Positions 9,470-15,452 of a stretch of 39,017 nt of DNA are shown piece by piece; position 1 is the first letter of the stretch, and each line of letters opens with the position of its first letter. The notes below the pieces were generated by a model. It was not told where the DNA came from. It did no database searches and was given only the letters and a program-made list of their open reading frames with translations. The stretch comes from a phage: the sequence record PZ168289.1. One strand, given 5' to 3'. A program made the translations under genes and the position numbers.

Positions 9470-9492
9470 CTGTCCTACAGTGATAGTTTAGG
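9470..9492 (-). promoter_or_regulatory. phage RNAP promoter (SSB upstream)
   Basis: CCTACAGTGATAGTTTAG, one mismatch at -3; contains the gp2 stop codon. Confidence 0.6.
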
Positions 9493-9646
9493 CCTCAGGA
9501 CGAATCCGTCCGACCACAAACCCAGCGTCCTCATACTCTTGGGACTTCAAGGTAGCCTCTTCAAGAGACTTTGCGTACACCGGAACCTCGAAGGACTTAA
9601 CGCGACCCTCAAGCTCCACGATGTACTTCTTCTCTACGTCAGTCAT
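9488..9646 (-). CDS. gp2-like inhibitor of host RNA polymerase
   Basis: 52-aa ORF (below track threshold), hand-translated; FEVPVYA...AGF.VGRIRP resembles T7 gp2; TAA stop lies inside promoter 9470-9492. Confidence 0.55.
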
Positions 9647-9724
9647 AGACCACGCTCCTTCCATAAGTTGTAGAGCTGAAGGTAATCGACGTTACCTGTC
9701 TCCTCAAATTTTCTCTCAGCCCAC

Positions 9725-10555: not shown

Positions 10556-11581
10556 TTAAATCTTGACTGTAGGATTATCCTCAGTTCCACGCCACTGGTC
10601 GAACGAGGGATGTCGCAATGAGCCATCTGGTGTCTCCTCCATGTAGGTAATCTGACAGGCCCACCCTTTGTAGTAATCTGGGTCCGACTTAACATTCTCC
10701 GTGAACTCGGACATAAGGGCGCGACTAATGTTAGTTGCGGAGACCTCCATCCCGTTCTCGAGCATAACGTCAAAGCCGATGACCATACCTTCGTTGGCTA
10801 GACCTTCTGTTCCCCACACCGGGAGAACAACGTGACCATCTGCCTCTTCACTTGGCTTCATCTTCCACATACCAGACTTCTTACCACGCTTGTATTTTCC
10901 CAGTGGGTCCTTGACTACCAGACCTTCATGTCCATCTGCTCGCTTCTCCTCGTACAAATCACGAAGAGACTCAAGGTTGAACACTGTATGACTCTCAGAG
11001 AGAACCCAGTCGATTTCCGGGAAGTATTTCTGAAGGAGAGGGACGATAGCTTCGGCCTTCAGGCGGGTTACGCTATGGATAGGACCTTCTGCTTTCGGGT
11101 CAGCAATGGTTGTCATGTCTACGACACCGTATACAACAACCTTAAGTCTTGACCGGGCTACCCAGAACGGGACCTTATTGCCTCGTCCCGGATAACATTC
11201 AGCGAACTCTTCGTTGCTAGTCTTCAGCCACTTCGTTCGGATGAGACCCGATGATGTGTTGAAGTCAACGCCTTTGACCATGACCTCTCCGTCAATCATC
11301 AGACCCACGCCTTCGTATCCAGCTTGACGTAGGAACCATCGCCAGTCAGCTTGGGTCCACGCATTCCCTAACTCAGAGTTCATCCACTCCAAGGCTGGAA
11401 GAGGTTTAGACTCACGGCTCAGCCAGTAGGTCTCACCTTCACGCAGTACCGGGAGGTTCAGACGCACACCGTCATACTTCACTTCAGCTTCCAGCGACCC
11501 TGCTGCTGCCAGTGCTTTCGTAACGCCTGACTCAGAGTAATCTACAGCTCGGTGTGGGTTAGTTTTGATAGTCGTTGTCAT
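10556..11581 (-). CDS. ATP-dependent DNA ligase (T7 gp1.3-like)
   Basis: Ligase motifs (EVKYDGVR, DGE.MVKGVDFNT.SGL.RTKW, EGHEGL.VKDP...YKRGKKSG.WKMKP, WACQI.YMEETPDGSLRHPSF); start set to ATG 11581 (MTTTIKTNP) overlapping gp1.2 stop. Confidence 0.95.
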   Translation of the reverse strand: MTTTIKTNPHRAVDYSESGVTKALAAAGSLEAEVKYDGVRLNLPVLREGETYWLSRESKPLPALEWMNSELGNAWTQADWRWFLRQAGYEGVGLMIDGEVMVKGVDFNTSSGLIRTKWLKTSNEEFAECYPGRGNKVPFWVARSRLKVVVYGVVDMTTIADPKAEGPIHSVTRLKAEAIVPLLQKYFPEIDWVLSESHTVFNLESLRDLYEEKRADGHEGLVVKDPLGKYKRGKKSGMWKMKPSEEADGHVVLPVWGTEGLANEGMVIGFDVMLENGMEVSATNISRALMSEFTENVKSDPDYYKGWACQITYMEETPDGSLRHPSFDQWRGTEDNPTVKI

Positions 11582-11844
11582 TATGATTTTCTCCATGTGT
11601 CGAGTTGGTCAGCGAGACCATTAAGGAAGTTGGTTGCAGTATTGTATAGTACGTCTTCATCGTAGTGTGCGAAGGACTCAAAAGCGAGTATGTTACCAGC
11701 TCGGTCCTCGACCCTGAGTCTCATACACTCTTGTCGTGACACATGGTCTTGAAACTCCTGAGATATGACAGCTAAGTCTAACTGATAAAGCCTGTTACAC
11801 GCTGCTTTGAAAGCGTTTAGGTTGCCACTATAAAGTCGGCCCAT
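11581..11844 (-). CDS. gp1.2-like protein (dGTPase inhibitor in T7)
   Basis: MGRLYSGNL.AFKAA.N.L.QLDLAVI closely matches the T7 gp1.2 N-terminus; same length. Confidence 0.9.
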   Translation of the reverse strand: MGRLYSGNLNAFKAACNRLYQLDLAVISQEFQDHVSRQECMRLRVEDRAGNILAFESFAHYDEDVLYNTATNFLNGLADQLDTWRKS

Positions 11845-11848
11845 AGCG

Positions 11849-12028
11849 TTATGCTCCTACGAAATACTTCTCTTGGTTTACCAGAGAGTCTTTGCCTTCA
11901 GCGTTACGGAAAGCACCCTTGACACCACCGCCACGCTTGGTCTTGTTCAGCTTGCGGCCCTTCGGAATGTAATCTTCAGTCTGCTGACGTTCACGGATGC
12001 GCTCGAAGTTGATAGTGTTCTGATACAT
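11849..12028 (-). CDS. gp1.1-like small basic protein
   Basis: 59-aa ORF hand-translated (MYQNTINFERIRERQQTEDYIPKGRKLNKTKRGGG...); KGRKLNKTKR matches T7 gp1.1; GGAG RBS; downstream of promoter 12100-12122. Confidence 0.7.
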   Translation of the reverse strand: MYQNTINFERIRERQQTEDYIPKGRKLNKTKRGGGVKGAFRNAEGKDSLVNQEKYFVGA

Positions 12029-12058
12029 GTTGTAGCTCCAGTTGTTTAGGTTATAGGG

Positions 12059-12103
12059 TTAATCATGAAGGCCACGACTTTAAGTCATGACCTTGAGTCT
12101 AAT
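12059..12103 (-). other. conserved RNA hairpin element, copy ii (putative RNase III site, R1.1-like position)
   Basis: Minus RNA AGGUCAUGAC-UUAAA-GUCGUGGCCU; compensatory changes relative to copies i and iii. Confidence 0.5.
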
Positions 12104-12122
12104 CCTATAGTGATAGTTTAGG
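12100..12122 (-). promoter_or_regulatory. phage RNAP promoter (gene 1.1 upstream)
   Basis: Perfect CCTATAGTGATAGTTTAG; transcript begins with the conserved hairpin element at 12059-12103. Confidence 0.75.
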
Positions 12123-12196
12123 TCAACCTCTTCTGCGTTGGATTAAAGTGAATACTGCTAGTGCTCCCAGCCACAAGGCCAGTAACTGTAGGTGTG

Positions 12197-12397
12197 TCAT
12201 TTGGTTGCCGCCTCTTTAAGGACTTGCTCGTGCGTCTGCTCCACCTGCTTAACCAGCCACTTGAACGGGACGTTAAGCTGCTTTGACATCTCGGTAGGGA
12301 TGACCGTGGTCTTCACCAGACCCTTGCCGTTGTGCTCTGTTACGGTCACGATTTGAGTCCCACCATTAACGCCAGTCTGCTTGTGTGCAAATTTCAT
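12197..12397 (-). CDS. hypothetical protein between RNAP and gene 1.1
   Basis: 66 aa from ATG 12397 (MKFAHK...) with AGGAGAG RBS; no T7 counterpart recalled at this position. Confidence 0.5.
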   Translation of the reverse strand: MKFAHKQTGVNGGTQIVTVTEHNGKGLVKTTVIPTEMSKQLNVPFKWLVKQVEQTHEQVLKEAATK

Positions 12398-12413
12398 AAC
12401 TCTCTCTCTCCTG

Positions 12414-15095
12414 TTAAGCGAATGCAAAGTCTGAAGACAAGATGTCTTCGATATTCAGTTTACCTTTCTTCGGAAGCTCAGGCAACTTATCGCGCTGGCT
12501 CTCATGAAGCTGGTATTCAAACTGCTCGTAGAAGTCCAGCAGCACATCGTTGTCTCGGTAGGTCTCGACCATCGTCTCACGGACACCACGGAACAGATAC
12601 TCAGCGTCAGCCGGGATGGTCCCGAAGCTATCGTGAATCACTGCGAATGACATCACGCCATACTTGCGGTGAGTGTGGACTACAGTCTTGCGTAGGTGGC
12701 TACCATCTTGTGAGTGGACGAAGTTCGGGCTAATTCCTGACTCCTGCTTGTGCTTATCCAGCTCCTTCTTCGTGCCTTTGTTGACGGTAGGCTGAAGGTT
12801 GAATGACCCTAAGAACATCAGGTTCAGACGAGTTGTATCCTTCTTGCGGTATTCCTGCCATACCGGGAACCCATCAGGTGTGACCCAGTGTACCGGAAGA
12901 CAAGGCTTCAGGATTTCTCCAGTCTTCTTGTCCTTCACCTCAGCAGCCAGCAGCTTGGCAGCACCTTGAAGCCACTTCATCGCGTCAACCGCAGCAACTA
13001 CTGTCACACTCACAGCTTCCCAAATCATCTTAGCCATGAAGCGAGACGCTTGGCTTGGTTCAGTGAACATAGCGCCAGACCCTGAGTCAATCGCTGGCAT
13101 CACGATGTCCTCGTATACTTGGTCTGCGAAGCCGTACTCTTTCGACCCGTAGGCCAGAGTCATGACCGAACGCTTAGTGACCTTGCGTGACATACCGTAG
13201 GTCAGCCACTGACGGGCCAGCTCTCGTGTCCCCAGCTTGAGACGCTCGGTAATCTCACCAGTTTTCTTGTCCTCGTGAGTTGCCATCTCGTTGTCCGTAC
13301 CGTTAACCAGCAGGACTTTGAGTTCCTCCTCAATGCGGTCAGACACAATGCGATAGATGTCTTGGACCTTACCGGATGGCGTTAGGTTTACTGCATGCCC
13401 ACCGATGTGGTCACGAAGCATCGCGCTGAAGTGCTGAATCCCAGAGCAGGACCCATCGAAAGCTATCGGCAGCGAGCAGGAGTAAGACAAACCGTGGTGC
13501 ATTACGCCAGCATACTCGAAGCAGAACGCTAGGAAGCAGAACGGAGAGTCTAACTTACCCCACCACTCAATGCTGTCCATCGGTGCTTTAGCGGTAGCCA
13601 TGATGTTGTCGTGGTTATCTTCCACCCACTTGATGCGCTCCTCGAAGGTTACTTTATCAATACCCGCACAGTTTGCACCGTGGACCTTCAGCCATTTGAA
13701 ACCATCAGCACCAATAGGCTTACCGACTGCCAGAGTCAGCAGACCCTTTTGCATGTCGTTACCCTGAGGGTTGAACATCGGCACAGCGTAGACGCGACCG
13801 CGCCAGTCCATGTTGTACGGAAACCAGATGGCCTTGAACTGAGAGAACTTGTTCGCTTGGTTAACGATAAAGCTCAGTGACAATCTACGTGACTGCCGGG
13901 CCTTCTCTCGGCGGTAGATACCAGCAGCAGCCTTCTTCCATGCCTTGAGTTCCTCCTCGGTCTCACCCGCATAGTCCTCAGGCTTCAGTGGCTCCATCTG
14001 AGGGATGTCATCAATAGGTGTGTTGTTCAACTTCTCGACCATGTTCACCACGTCCAGCACCTTCTTGTTCACTTTCCAAGGTGTGTTCTGAATGATGTTC
14101 ACAGCGTCGTAGACTTCAGGCATGTATACGTCTTCATAACGTGCCACCGCTGACTTAGACCCTAAGCGAATCAGGGGCAGCGGTCTGCGACCTTTGGCCC
14201 AGTACCCACCGCCTACGACACCAGTCCACGGCTTAGGTGGAACGACGCAAGGCTGGTAGACTGGAGCGATACCCGCAAGGCTGAATCCTCGTTGTGCCAT
14301 CTTCTTGACCCAGAAGTCTGACAGGTGGACCATCTCTACGTCAGCCGCTGCATTGCCAGCACCGTACCGCTTAAGCTCGACCAGTTGTGTTGACTGGATG
14401 ACAATCTCAAGCATCTTGATGCCAACGTGGACAGCCTCTGTAGGACTCCAAGTCCCCCACGCATCTTCCAGTTGGCCTTGCTCCAGCATGGATGCCTCGA
14501 CCGCTTGCATGTAGGCTTTCTTGTAGGACGCCCCGGCCCGCTTATTCAGGTTATCAGCTATCGCCTTCTTGAAGTGCTCTTTCTCCTTGTCACGGATGCG
14601 ACCGAAGCGGATTTCGTCCTCAAGTGTGCGACCTATCGCGGAGGCCATCGGTGTAATCGGTATCCCTTCAGGCTTGACCAGCTTGGAGAGTATGACCTTC
14701 AGTATGATGACCGCAGCAGACTCGCAAGAGATACGCAGAGAGCGGTCCTTGACGGCCTTCTCTTCAGTGCTCAACATGGTGAACGCTACGCTAGGACGAG
14801 AGGTTGACAGCTTCCCGTCTGGGCCTCCATGCCACTCCTTGATGGCTTGCGCAATCTTAGGGACCAGAGTCTGCATCAAAGGCTTGGCTACCTGATTGTC
14901 TGCGAGTTCTCCGCGCTCAGTCTGGCGCTCAAGGTTCTTGATGAAACGTCGCTCGCCTTCAGTGTATGCCTCGTGCTCAAGCTGAAGCTGCTTGACTGCA
15001 AGGTCCTGCCCGTAGTGGTCAGCCAGCAGGTTAAACGGCTCAATGGCGTTTGACACATCAGAGAAGTCGTGTTTTTCAATAGAGATGACGCTCAT
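12414..15095 (-). CDS. single-subunit DNA-directed RNA polymerase (T7 gp1-like)
   Basis: Collinear with T7 RNAP (HDFSD, PFN.LADHYG, motifs around DGSCSGIQHFSA and HDSFGT, C-terminal FAFA); start set to ATG 15095 (MSVISIEKHDF) with AAGGA RBS; track start 15146 is GTG. Confidence 0.97.
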   Translation of the reverse strand: MSVISIEKHDFSDVSNAIEPFNLLADHYGQDLAVKQLQLEHEAYTEGERRFIKNLERQTERGELADNQVAKPLMQTLVPKIAQAIKEWHGGPDGKLSTSRPSVAFTMLSTEEKAVKDRSLRISCESAAVIILKVILSKLVKPEGIPITPMASAIGRTLEDEIRFGRIRDKEKEHFKKAIADNLNKRAGASYKKAYMQAVEASMLEQGQLEDAWGTWSPTEAVHVGIKMLEIVIQSTQLVELKRYGAGNAAADVEMVHLSDFWVKKMAQRGFSLAGIAPVYQPCVVPPKPWTGVVGGGYWAKGRRPLPLIRLGSKSAVARYEDVYMPEVYDAVNIIQNTPWKVNKKVLDVVNMVEKLNNTPIDDIPQMEPLKPEDYAGETEEELKAWKKAAAGIYRREKARQSRRLSLSFIVNQANKFSQFKAIWFPYNMDWRGRVYAVPMFNPQGNDMQKGLLTLAVGKPIGADGFKWLKVHGANCAGIDKVTFEERIKWVEDNHDNIMATAKAPMDSIEWWGKLDSPFCFLAFCFEYAGVMHHGLSYSCSLPIAFDGSCSGIQHFSAMLRDHIGGHAVNLTPSGKVQDIYRIVSDRIEEELKVLLVNGTDNEMATHEDKKTGEITERLKLGTRELARQWLTYGMSRKVTKRSVMTLAYGSKEYGFADQVYEDIVMPAIDSGSGAMFTEPSQASRFMAKMIWEAVSVTVVAAVDAMKWLQGAAKLLAAEVKDKKTGEILKPCLPVHWVTPDGFPVWQEYRKKDTTRLNLMFLGSFNLQPTVNKGTKKELDKHKQESGISPNFVHSQDGSHLRKTVVHTHRKYGVMSFAVIHDSFGTIPADAEYLFRGVRETMVETYRDNDVLLDFYEQFEYQLHESQRDKLPELPKKGKLNIEDILSSDFAFA

Positions 15096-15163
15096 ACTTA
15101 AAGTCCTTGTTATTAGTCTTTCACTTAAGTCTCTTTGGTCTTTCACTTGGAGTCTTAGACCTT

Positions 15164-15186
15164 GAGTCCTATAGTGATAGTTAAGT
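15164..15186 (-). promoter_or_regulatory. phage RNAP promoter directly upstream of the RNAP gene
   Basis: CCTATAGTGATAGTTAAG at 15168-15185, about 70 nt upstream of RNAP ATG 15095. Confidence 0.65.
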
Positions 15187-15191
15187 CATAA

Positions 15192-15452
15192 TTACTTGCA
15201 TATCAGAGGGTTAGCGTGAAGATGACTGAAGTCACCGTGAGTCGTGTGCTTGATGGTTGACCGTTGGTCTATCGCCTTCCAGCCTGAGACCAGAAGTTTA
15301 CCATCGTCGGTGATTGGTCGTCCACCATACGCCAGACACATCAGCTCGGACTTATGGCCCTCGGCCCGGAGTCTTGCTTGCAGAACCCGGTCTCGCTCCT
15401 GCTGTTGACGTGCGGTGTGACTTGATGGTTTGTGTGTGTATACGGTTTTCAT
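15192..15452 (-). CDS. hypothetical early protein
   Basis: 86-aa ORF directly upstream of RNAP; start overlaps the stop of the preceding ORF. Confidence 0.5.
   Translation of the reverse strand: MKTVYTHKPSSHTARQQQERDRVLQARLRAEGHKSELMCLAYGGRPITDDGKLLVSGWKAIDQRSTIKHTTHGDFSHLHANPLICK

What the first reader, a model, noticed from the sequence alone, without database searches (positions are those of the whole stretch)
12197..12397. Extra 66-aa gene between RNAP and gene 1.1
A well-initiated ORF (AGGAGAG RBS) follows the RNAP stop, upstream of the gene 1.1 promoter and hairpin element. I recall no T7 gene in this position.
Basis: partly seen in the sequence, partly recalled or inferred. Interest (0 to 1): 0.35.

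Follow-up and report, generated by a model that had tools for sequence, protein, structure and literature searches.

The report
Known K1F-type small gene after RNAP
The 66-codon reading frame after the phage RNA polymerase gene is a real, conserved gene, already annotated as a protein of unknown function in more than 200 K1F-like (Kayfunavirus) phages, so it is ordinary for this phage group even though T7 lacks it.

Summary
The window is a K1F-like (Kayfunavirus) phage read on its minus strand, not T7. ORF 12397..12197 (-) starts 17 nt after the RNAP stop, behind an AGGAG(AG)n Shine-Dalgarno tract. It lies upstream of a phage promoter and an R1.1-type RNase III hairpin that precede the true gene 1.1 homologue.

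It is a real gene:
- Full-length match to PHROG 8082 (E 6e-41).
- 219 full-length copies in public phage genomes.
- pN/pS of 0.36 in frame, against 1.5-1.6 out of frame.
- A confident AlphaFold model (pLDDT 93): three beta-strands plus two helices.

It is already annotated as 'gp1.1' in K1F and Dev2, as '1.05' in CR44b, and otherwise as hypothetical. It is unrelated to T7 gp1.1 and T3 gp1.05. No fold or sequence match assigns a function.

New details:
- It is a sharply bounded hypervariable cassette: about 50% nucleotide identity inside flanks that are 93-100% identical.
- It is always basic (pI 9.3-10.3).
- It is dispensable in a natural deletion lineage.
- Its stop overlaps (ATGA) the start of a more conserved, mostly unannotated 25-aa membrane micro-ORF.

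Most likely it is a non-essential early host-interaction protein. Interest is low.

The parts
12414..15095 (-). Gene 1, T7-type single-subunit RNA polymerase (893 aa). ORF A lies on the same transcription unit.
   Evidence: ORF list and sequence. Annotated as RNA polymerase in K1F and ZH4 at about 92-95% nucleotide identity. No sigma-70-like promoter or terminator on the minus strand between gene 1 and ORF A.
12400..12412 (-). Shine-Dalgarno tract AGGAG(AG)4 in the 17-nt spacer between the RNAP stop (12416..12414) and the ORF A start codon.
   Evidence: Read directly. Relatives have AGGAG or AAGGAGG 6-8 nt before the ATG, and the (AG)n length varies.
12197..12397 (-). ORF A, the finding. A 66-aa basic protein (7.3 kDa, pI 9.7) of PHROG 8082, called 'gp1.1' in K1F and Dev2 and '1.05' in CR44b. 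Function unknown.
   Evidence: PHROG 8082, E 6e-41, residues 1-66 of 66. 219 full-length tblastn matches. pN/pS 0.36 in frame against about 1.5 off frame. AlphaFold pLDDT 93.3, beta3 + alpha + alpha. Divergence island 12413..12210.
12123..12200 (-). ORF B, a 25-aa hydrophobic micro-ORF (MTHLQLLALWLGALAVFTLIQRRRG). Its ATG overlaps the ORF A stop (ATGA). Predicted single membrane helix with a C-terminal RRRG.
   Evidence: Intact, 25 codons and overlapping in 30 of 30 loci. pN/pS 0.30 in frame against 1.0-1.2 off frame. Present in 222 phage records. Retained in Caroctavirus CR8 and in L036, where ORF A is replaced or very divergent.
12098..12122 (-). Phage RNAP promoter (phi1.1-type) that drives genes 1.1, 1.2 and 1.3. 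It lies downstream of ORFs A and B.
   Evidence: One of nine sites in the window sharing (A/C)CT(A/T)A(A/G)CTATCACTATAGG, all on the minus strand. Annotated as a predicted promoter at the same place in CR44b and CR8.
12055..12106 (-). R1.1-type RNase III hairpin. It marks the 3' boundary of the gene 1 / ORF A / ORF B mRNA.
   Evidence: Predicted hairpin, dG -18.9 kcal/mol, z -2.5. Sequence AAGGTCATGAC...GTGGCCTTCATGATTAAC resembles the annotated T3 R1.1 site AAGGTCATCAC...GTGGCCTTTGTGATTAAC. Cleavage was not tested.
11849..12028 (-). True homologue of T7 gene 1.1 (59 aa), called 'gp1.15' in K1F and Dev2.
   Evidence: Pfam PF08200 Phage_1_1, E 1e-10; PHROG 4383, E 6.5e-42.

Best explanation
ORF A is a genuine, translated accessory gene typical of K1F-like (Kayfunavirus) phages.

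Shown:
- It encodes a 66-aa basic protein with a compact fold of three beta-strands, a short helix and a long amphipathic helix.
- It sits 17 nt after the RNAP stop, with no promoter, terminator or processing site in between.
- Its stop codon overlaps the start of a 25-aa membrane micro-ORF (ORF B).
- The phi1.1 promoter and the R1.1 hairpin come only after both ORFs.

Inferred:
- It is expressed early, as the second cistron of a tricistronic gene 1 mRNA (gene 1, ORF A, ORF B). That mRNA would be made first by host RNAP and then from the phage promoter upstream of gene 1.
- ORF B is translated by coupling to ORF A.

Most likely function (inferred, about 35-40% on its own): a non-essential host-interaction protein of the T7 class I/II kind, involved in host take-over or counter-defence. 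It would act by stoichiometric binding to an acidic or polyanionic host target. The conserved beta-sheet would serve as scaffold and the variable C-terminal helix as specificity surface, possibly working at the membrane together with ORF B.

That it is a real protein-coding gene of a known but uncharacterised family is about 95% certain.
For: Real gene:
- PHROG 8082 match over the full length.
- 219 full-length copies, and 155 protein clusters almost all of 66 aa.
- pN/pS 0.36 in frame against 1.49 and 1.63 off frame.
- dS is saturated (above 1.3) between allele classes while length and fold are kept.
- The RBS is conserved.

Same transcription unit as gene 1:
- 17-nt spacer, and no promoter or terminator pattern on this strand.
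- The promoter and the R1.1-like hairpin lie only downstream.
- Even the most distant homologues, P0140 and P0135, sit directly after a T7-type RNAP.

Accessory and in an arms-race-like regime:
- Absent from T7, and T3 has an unrelated gene 1.05.
- Replaced by an unrelated 45-aa ORF in Caroctavirus CR8.
- A natural lineage lacking codons 27-66, ORF B, the promoter and the hairpin occurs in three samples, on contigs up to 29.5 kb.
- Between this window and phages vB_EcoP_F and ST38, dense mismatches run exactly from 12413 to 12210, inside flanks that are 93-100% identical.
- Against K1F, only the C-terminal helix segment 12260..12201 diverges.

Binding-protein character:
- Small confident fold, with invariant residues mostly structural: G12, G13, V17-T18-V19, G24.
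- All ten allele classes tested are basic, pI 9.3-10.3 and net charge +3 to +9.
Against: No function is demonstrated.
- There is no Pfam, NCBIfam or PDB sequence match.
- Early expression and translational coupling are inferred from anatomy, not measured.
- A sharply bounded divergent allele can arise from recombination alone, without diversifying selection.
- Allele classes do not track host genus: K1F-type and F-type alleles both occur in E. coli and Salmonella Typhi phages.
- No literature on the function was found.
Confidence: 0.5

Rival explanations
1. ORF A is a small nucleic-acid-binding protein. It would act on phage DNA or RNA at this locus, for example at the replication origin (which in T7 and T3 lies between genes 1 and 1.1) or on RNase III-processed transcripts.
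Against: Those fold matches are no better than dozens of unrelated ones and are not significant (Foldseek E of 0.85 or more). The N-terminal helix of a dsRBD is missing. The protein is dispensable in a natural deletion lineage. A cis-acting partner site should co-vary with the allele, yet the flanking DNA is 93-100% identical across allele classes.
Confidence: 0.15
2. ORF A is an accessory factor of the phage RNA polymerase, such as a modulator, chaperone or inhibitor in the manner of T7 lysozyme. This would explain why it always sits directly behind gene 1.
For: The position immediately after a T7-type RNAP is invariant in all loci examined, including the most distant homologues. It is co-transcribed with gene 1.
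Against: ORF A alleles at 42-55% identity sit behind RNAP 3' regions that are 93-100% identical, so there is no co-variation. CR8 has an unrelated ORF in this slot. A deletion lineage persists. T7 and T3 RNAPs work without it (and established knowledge of T7).
Confidence: 0.12
3. ORF A matters mainly as a carrier of ribosomes to ORF B. Its translation delivers ribosomes to the overlapping ATGA start of the conserved 25-aa membrane peptide, and the ORF A product itself is of secondary importance.
For: ORF B is far more conserved than ORF A (window against vB_EcoP_F: ORF B dS 0 and dN 0.04, ORF A dS 1.7 and dN 0.55). The last 13 nt or so of ORF A, which hold the ORF B start region, fall outside the divergence island. 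In CR8 an unrelated 45-aa ORF occupies the slot and still abuts the ORF B start (TAATG).
Against: ORF A keeps its 66-aa length, 14 invariant residues, a confident fold and pN/pS 0.36 across alleles with saturated synonymous divergence. This shows selection on the protein itself.
Confidence: 0.1
4. The ORF is a chance reading frame over a cis-acting element and is not translated.
For: Many off-frame ORFs of similar size exist in the region. The equivalent T7 interval holds only regulatory elements.
Against: The substitution pattern is frame-specific (0.36 against about 1.5). Start, stop, length and RBS are conserved in more than 200 genomes. The structure model is confident.
Confidence: 0.02

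Closest known systems
PHROG 8082: Kayfunavirus 'gp1.1' (K1F CAJ29348, Dev2) / '1.05' (CR44b) hypothetical proteins
   Same: Full-length HMM match (E 6e-41). 80-97% identity to most members. Same 66-aa length, and the same position directly after gene 1 and before the phi1.1 promoter.
   Different: Nothing material; this is a member. K1F-type copies carry a 5-aa C-terminal extension (71 aa) and a different C-terminal helix. The family has no assigned function.
T7 gene 1.1 protein (Pfam PF08200)
   Same: Small basic protein of unknown function in the same early region. The K1F and Dev2 annotations gave ORF A the name 'gp1.1'.
   Different: No sequence relationship: ORF A has no Pfam hit. The real 1.1 homologue is the neighbouring 59-aa ORF 12028..11849. 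The shared name is an annotation accident.
T3 / phiYeO3-12 gene 1.05
   Same: An extra small gene inserted between gene 1 and gene 1.1, which T7 lacks.
   Different: Unrelated in sequence (hhalign probability 0.09%). T3 gene 1.05 has its own phage promoter (phi1.05) and overlaps the primary origin. ORF A has no promoter of its own and follows gene 1 directly.
Small phage host-takeover inhibitors with a beta-sheet-plus-helix fold (Xp10 P7; T7 Gp2 as the class example)
   Different: The similarity is at the level of generic topology, with 6% identity. The phage has its own gp2 homologue elsewhere: PF16857 in the related locus L037, and in the window the 58-aa ORF 9488..9664, which I recognised as gp2-like by eye and did not test. 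No target is known for ORF A.

Membership tests
PHROG 8082 (Kayfunavirus post-RNAP 66-aa protein) | Significant full-length match to the family profile | tested here: met
   E 6.2e-41, residues 1-66 on profile positions 1-66 of 66.
PHROG 8082 (Kayfunavirus post-RNAP 66-aa protein) | Syntenic position immediately downstream of the T7-type RNAP gene, upstream of the gene 1.1 homologue | tested here: met
   Window. K1F, ZH4, LET1, GW1, vB_EcoP_F, ST38, 04_vB_Eclo_IJM and CR44b. Distant homologues L035 and L036.
PHROG 8082 (Kayfunavirus post-RNAP 66-aa protein) | Protein-coding constraint shared across members | tested here: met
   pN/pS 0.36 in frame against 1.49 and 1.63 off frame over 29 distinct alleles.
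T7 gene 1.1 family (Pfam PF08200 Phage_1_1) | Match to the Pfam model above the gathering threshold | tested here: not met
   ORF A has no Pfam family at E up to 1. The neighbouring 59-aa ORF scores 42.3 bits against a cut-off of 21.
T3-type gene 1.05 | Sequence or profile similarity to T3 gp1.05 | tested here: not met
   hhalign probability 0.09%, 4 aligned columns. No T3 or T7 records among the tblastn hits.
T3-type gene 1.05 | Own phage promoter (phi1.05) between gene 1 and the ORF | tested here: not met
   Only 17 nt separate the RNAP stop from the ATG. The nearest CACTATAGG cores are at 15176 and 12112.
dsRBD / AP2-type nucleic-acid-binding folds | Significant structural match over the whole domain | tested here: not met
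dsRBD / AP2-type nucleic-acid-binding folds | Binding to nucleic acid | not testable with these tools
   Only the conserved basic charge is seen. A gel-shift assay is needed.
Phage anti-defence / host-takeover small proteins (functional class, not a homology family) | Early expression, small size, dispensability, rapid allelic turnover | tested here: inconclusive
   Size, position, the deletion lineage and the divergence island fit. Expression timing and any host target are untested.

The most novel reading that the evidence does not exclude
ORF A and ORF B together form a previously unrecognised two-part early module of K1F-like phages. It pairs a hypervariable basic soluble protein with a nearly invariant, translationally coupled 25-aa membrane peptide, and it counteracts strain-specific host immunity or excludes competing phages at the inner membrane. 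The swapped ORF A alleles, and the C-terminal helix in particular, would set specificity.
Probability: 0.2. Interest if true: 0.6.

Novelty: already known. Interest (0 to 1): 0.22.

Why it matters
For genome annotation it matters little. The gene is a routine, already annotated hypothetical protein of Kayfunavirus phages.

It has three practical uses:
- It clears up a naming trap. 'gp1.1' of K1F and Dev2 is not the T7 gp1.1 homologue, and '1.05' means three different genes in T3, CR44b and EcoDS1.
- It flags a conserved 25-aa membrane micro-ORF that most annotations miss.
- It marks ORF A as a sharply bounded hypervariable cassette in therapeutic-type phages of E. coli K1 and Salmonella Typhi. 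That makes it a reasonable candidate when looking for determinants of strain-level host range or counter-defence.

Tried and rejected
- **Homology to T3 gp1.05.** Rejected: hhalign probability 0.09%.
- **Homology to T7 gp1.1.** Rejected: the Pfam model hits the neighbouring ORF instead.
- **Pfam, NCBIfam and PDB sequence searches for ORF A.** Nothing found. The best PDB hit has E 1.2, to a designed protein.
- **Exhaustive profile search of 1.84 billion representative proteins.** Only 13 hits. Four are large repetitive Big_2 / cadherin / SLH proteins, which match the beta-hairpin segment repeatedly. I judge these compositional, not homologous.
- **Rfam scan of 11500..15400.** No RNA family.
- **Sigma-70 promoter and terminator scan.** Nothing on the gene strand.
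- **tblastn with the 25-aa ORF B.** Returned nothing, probably because of the low-complexity filter. I used blastn instead.
- **Literature.** No paper on the function. The K1F genome paper is not in the library.
- **The 76-aa TTG-initiated version (12427).** Rejected. It overlaps the RNAP 3' end, and the 2-nt-step (AG)n length changes in relatives break that frame.

Full report
**What the window is.** The 1-kb region around the finding matches 240 phage records by megablast. The best matches, at 92-95% identity, are Kayfunavirus (K1F-like) phages such as ZH4, IMEP24, Hafnia phage yong1 and K1F itself. The genome is presented in reverse orientation relative to the T7 map, so all the genes discussed here are on the minus strand.

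**Checking the observation.**
- The RNAP gene runs 15095..12414 (-) and encodes 893 aa.
- After its TAA stop (12416..12414) the sequence reads C-AGGAG-AGAGAGAG-TT-ATG.
- ORF A begins at 12397 and ends with TGA at 12199..12197, giving 66 codons.
- Downstream lies CCTAAACTATCACTATAGGATTAGA (12122..12098). It is one of nine minus-strand sites sharing the phage promoter core CTATCACTATAGG.
- Next comes a hairpin at 12106..12055 (dG -18.9 kcal/mol, z -2.5). Its sequence resembles the annotated RNase III site R1.1 of T3.
- The 59-aa ORF at 12028..11849 is the true gene 1.1 homologue (Pfam PF08200, E 1e-10). The 87-aa ORF that follows is gene 1.2 (PF10922, E 7e-33).
- T7 has only promoters phi1.1A and phi1.1B annotated between gene 1 and gene 1.1.

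**Is it a gene?** ORF length alone proves nothing here, because many off-frame ORFs of similar size occur nearby. The evidence comes from comparison:
- tblastn finds 221 phage records, 219 of them covering the full length. Identity ranges from 97% down to 42%.
- The large protein collection holds 155 clusters, almost all of exactly 66 aa.
- Over 29 distinct alleles from 30 loci, pN/pS is 0.36 in the annotated frame, against 1.49 and 1.63 in the other two frames.
- Between allele classes synonymous divergence is saturated (dS above 1.3), yet start, stop, length and 14 invariant residues are kept.
- A Shine-Dalgarno sequence precedes the ATG in every relative inspected.
- AlphaFold2 with a 28-sequence alignment gives a confident model: mean pLDDT 93.3, strands 3-10, 13-22 and 25-34, helices 35-40 and 45-65.

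**What family?**
- ORF A matches PHROG 8082 over its whole length (E 6e-41). That family has no assigned function.
- It has no Pfam, NCBIfam or PDB sequence match.
- In the K1F record it is annotated 'gp1.1', with the true 1.1 homologue called 'gp1.15'. Dev2 and the SH-phage paper use the same names (PMC4925675).
- In CR44b it is '1.05'. Elsewhere it is 'hypothetical protein', for example ORF 7 of Hafnia phage Ca (PMC8861465).
- It is unrelated to T3 gp1.05 (hhalign probability 0.09%).
- An exhaustive profile search of 1.84 billion representative proteins returns only 13 hits. The short ones are family members or truncated copies of it. Four are large repetitive Big_2 / cadherin / SLH proteins, whose repeated hairpin matches I regard as compositional.
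- The two most distant members whose contigs I looked up, P0140 and P0135, both lie directly after a T7-type RNAP.

The family is therefore narrow, covering Kayfunavirus and a few close relatives, and it is positionally fixed.

**Structure comparison.**
- Foldseek against PDB finds nothing with E below 0.5.
- BFVD returns the protein's own family (GA2A) and one uncharacterised 59-aa protein of phage ECBP5.

No function can be transferred from any of these.

**Anatomy and likely expression.**
- No promoter-like or terminator-like site lies on the gene strand between gene 1 and ORF A, and the spacer is only 17 nt.
- The phage promoter and the R1.1-like hairpin come only after ORF B.
- A further phage promoter sits about 65 nt upstream of the gene 1 ATG (15176).
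- By analogy with T7 class I transcription and RNase III processing (established knowledge of T7), I infer that gene 1, ORF A and ORF B form one processed mRNA made early. This is an inference, not a measurement.

**The coupled micro-ORF.**
- The TGA of ORF A overlaps an ATG (ATGA) that opens a 25-codon frame, 12200..12123 (-). It encodes MTHLQLLALWLGALAVFTLIQRRRG, a hydrophobic stretch followed by RRRG.
- It is intact, 25 codons long and overlapping in all 30 loci (one starts with GTG).
- Its pN/pS is 0.30 in frame, against 1.0-1.2 off frame.
- It occurs in 222 phage records.
- It persists with many synonymous changes in Caroctavirus CR8, where ORF A is replaced by an unrelated 45-aa ORF. It also persists next to the very divergent ORF A of L036.
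- Most records do not annotate it. RefSeq IMM-002 calls it 'DUF2842 domain-containing protein', a label my Pfam scan does not support.

**Evolutionary behaviour of ORF A.**
- Against vB_EcoP_F and Salmonella phage ST38, the 1 kb of RNAP upstream and the ORF B / promoter / gene 1.1 region downstream are 93-100% identical. ORF A itself is 48-63% identical in 60-nt windows.
- Dense mismatches run exactly from 12413 to 12210. The last 13 nt or so, which hold the ORF B start region, are spared.
- Against K1F, only 12260..12201 (the C-terminal helix) diverges.
- ORF A and ORF B allele types assort independently.
- Every allele class stays basic: pI 9.3-10.3, net charge +3 to +9.
- A natural lineage, seen in three sequencing runs on contigs up to 29.5 kb, joins ORF A codon 26 to the C-terminal part of gp1.1 through a CAAGGGT microhomology. 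The deletion removes the rest of ORF A, ORF B, the promoter and the hairpin.
- Truncated or frameshifted copies also exist (P0130, P0137).

The gene is therefore accessory, exchangeable and dispensable in at least some settings.

**Interpretation.** With high confidence, ORF A is a real gene and a member of a known, uncharacterised family that is standard in K1F-like phages. On mechanism I commit, at about 35-40%, to an early non-essential host-interaction protein involved in take-over or counter-defence. It would bind an acidic or polyanionic target, with the conserved sheet as scaffold and the variable C-terminal helix as specificity surface, perhaps acting with ORF B at the membrane.

The rivals are:
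- A nucleic-acid-binding role (about 15%).
- An RNAP accessory factor (about 12%). The lack of co-variation with the RNAP counts against this.
- Mainly a translational carrier for ORF B (about 10%). Selection on the ORF A protein itself counts against this.
- A non-gene (about 2%).

**Verdict.** The only mildly interesting additions are the hypervariable-cassette behaviour and the overlooked, more widely conserved 25-aa membrane micro-ORF coupled to it.

Noticed in passing
window 12123..12200 (-): A 25-aa hydrophobic micro-ORF (MTHLQLLALWLGALAVFTLIQRRRG) starts at the ATGA overlap with the ORF A stop. It is under coding constraint, occurs in 222 phage records, and is kept in Caroctavirus CR8, where ORF A is replaced by an unrelated ORF. 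Most records do not annotate it.
   Followed up: partly
window 12210..12413 (-), against L005 and L006: ORF A is a sharply bounded divergence island of about 50% nucleotide identity, inside flanks that are 93-100% identical to phages vB_EcoP_F and ST38. Against K1F, only the C-terminal helix segment 12201..12260 diverges.
   Followed up: yes
L037 3501-3644 (also L038, L039): A natural deletion lineage fuses ORF A codons 1-26 to the C-terminal 21 aa of gp1.1 through a CAAGGGT microhomology. The deletion removes ORF B, the phi1.1 promoter and the R1.1 hairpin. It was seen in three sequencing runs, on contigs up to 29.5 kb.
   Followed up: yes
window 15160..15176 (-), upstream of the gene 1 ATG at 15095: A full phage-type promoter (ACTTAACTATCACTATAGGACTCAAGGTC) lies directly upstream of the RNAP gene. 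Its downstream sequence begins like the R1.1 hairpin. This implies that the phage RNAP transcribes its own gene along with ORFs A and B. From memory, T7 has no phage promoter immediately before gene 1.
   Followed up: no
window 12400..12411 (-): The GG(AG)n tract between the RNAP stop and the ORF A ATG varies in length among phages (n=5 here, 4 in K1F, 3 in ZH4). This changes the SD-ATG spacing from 6 to 10 nt. It could be a slippage-prone tuner of translation.
   Followed up: partly
L003 1519-2001, L004 1481-1948 (no counterpart in the window near 12123): Several Kayfunavirus phages (LET1, GW1, Hafnia Ca/yong1, Dev2 'gp1.06', EcoDS1 'gp1.05') carry an extra 156-160-aa ORF between ORF B and gene 1.1. 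Some records label it 'microtubule-binding protein'. This window lacks it, so the site is an indel hot spot with conflicting gene names.
   Followed up: no
window 11581..11844 (-), gene 1.2: The dGTPase-inhibitor gene 1.2 also shows local divergence islands against close relatives: 58% identity at 11721..11780 against ST38, and 33-57% against GW1. This fits the reported allelic variation of gp1.2 linked to PifA sensitivity (PMC11990801).
   Followed up: no
L031 1137-1274 (Caroctavirus CR8): CR8 has an unrelated 45-aa ORF ('1.05', no database hits) in the slot that ORF A occupies here. It still abuts the conserved 25-aa micro-ORF start (TAATG).
   Followed up: partly
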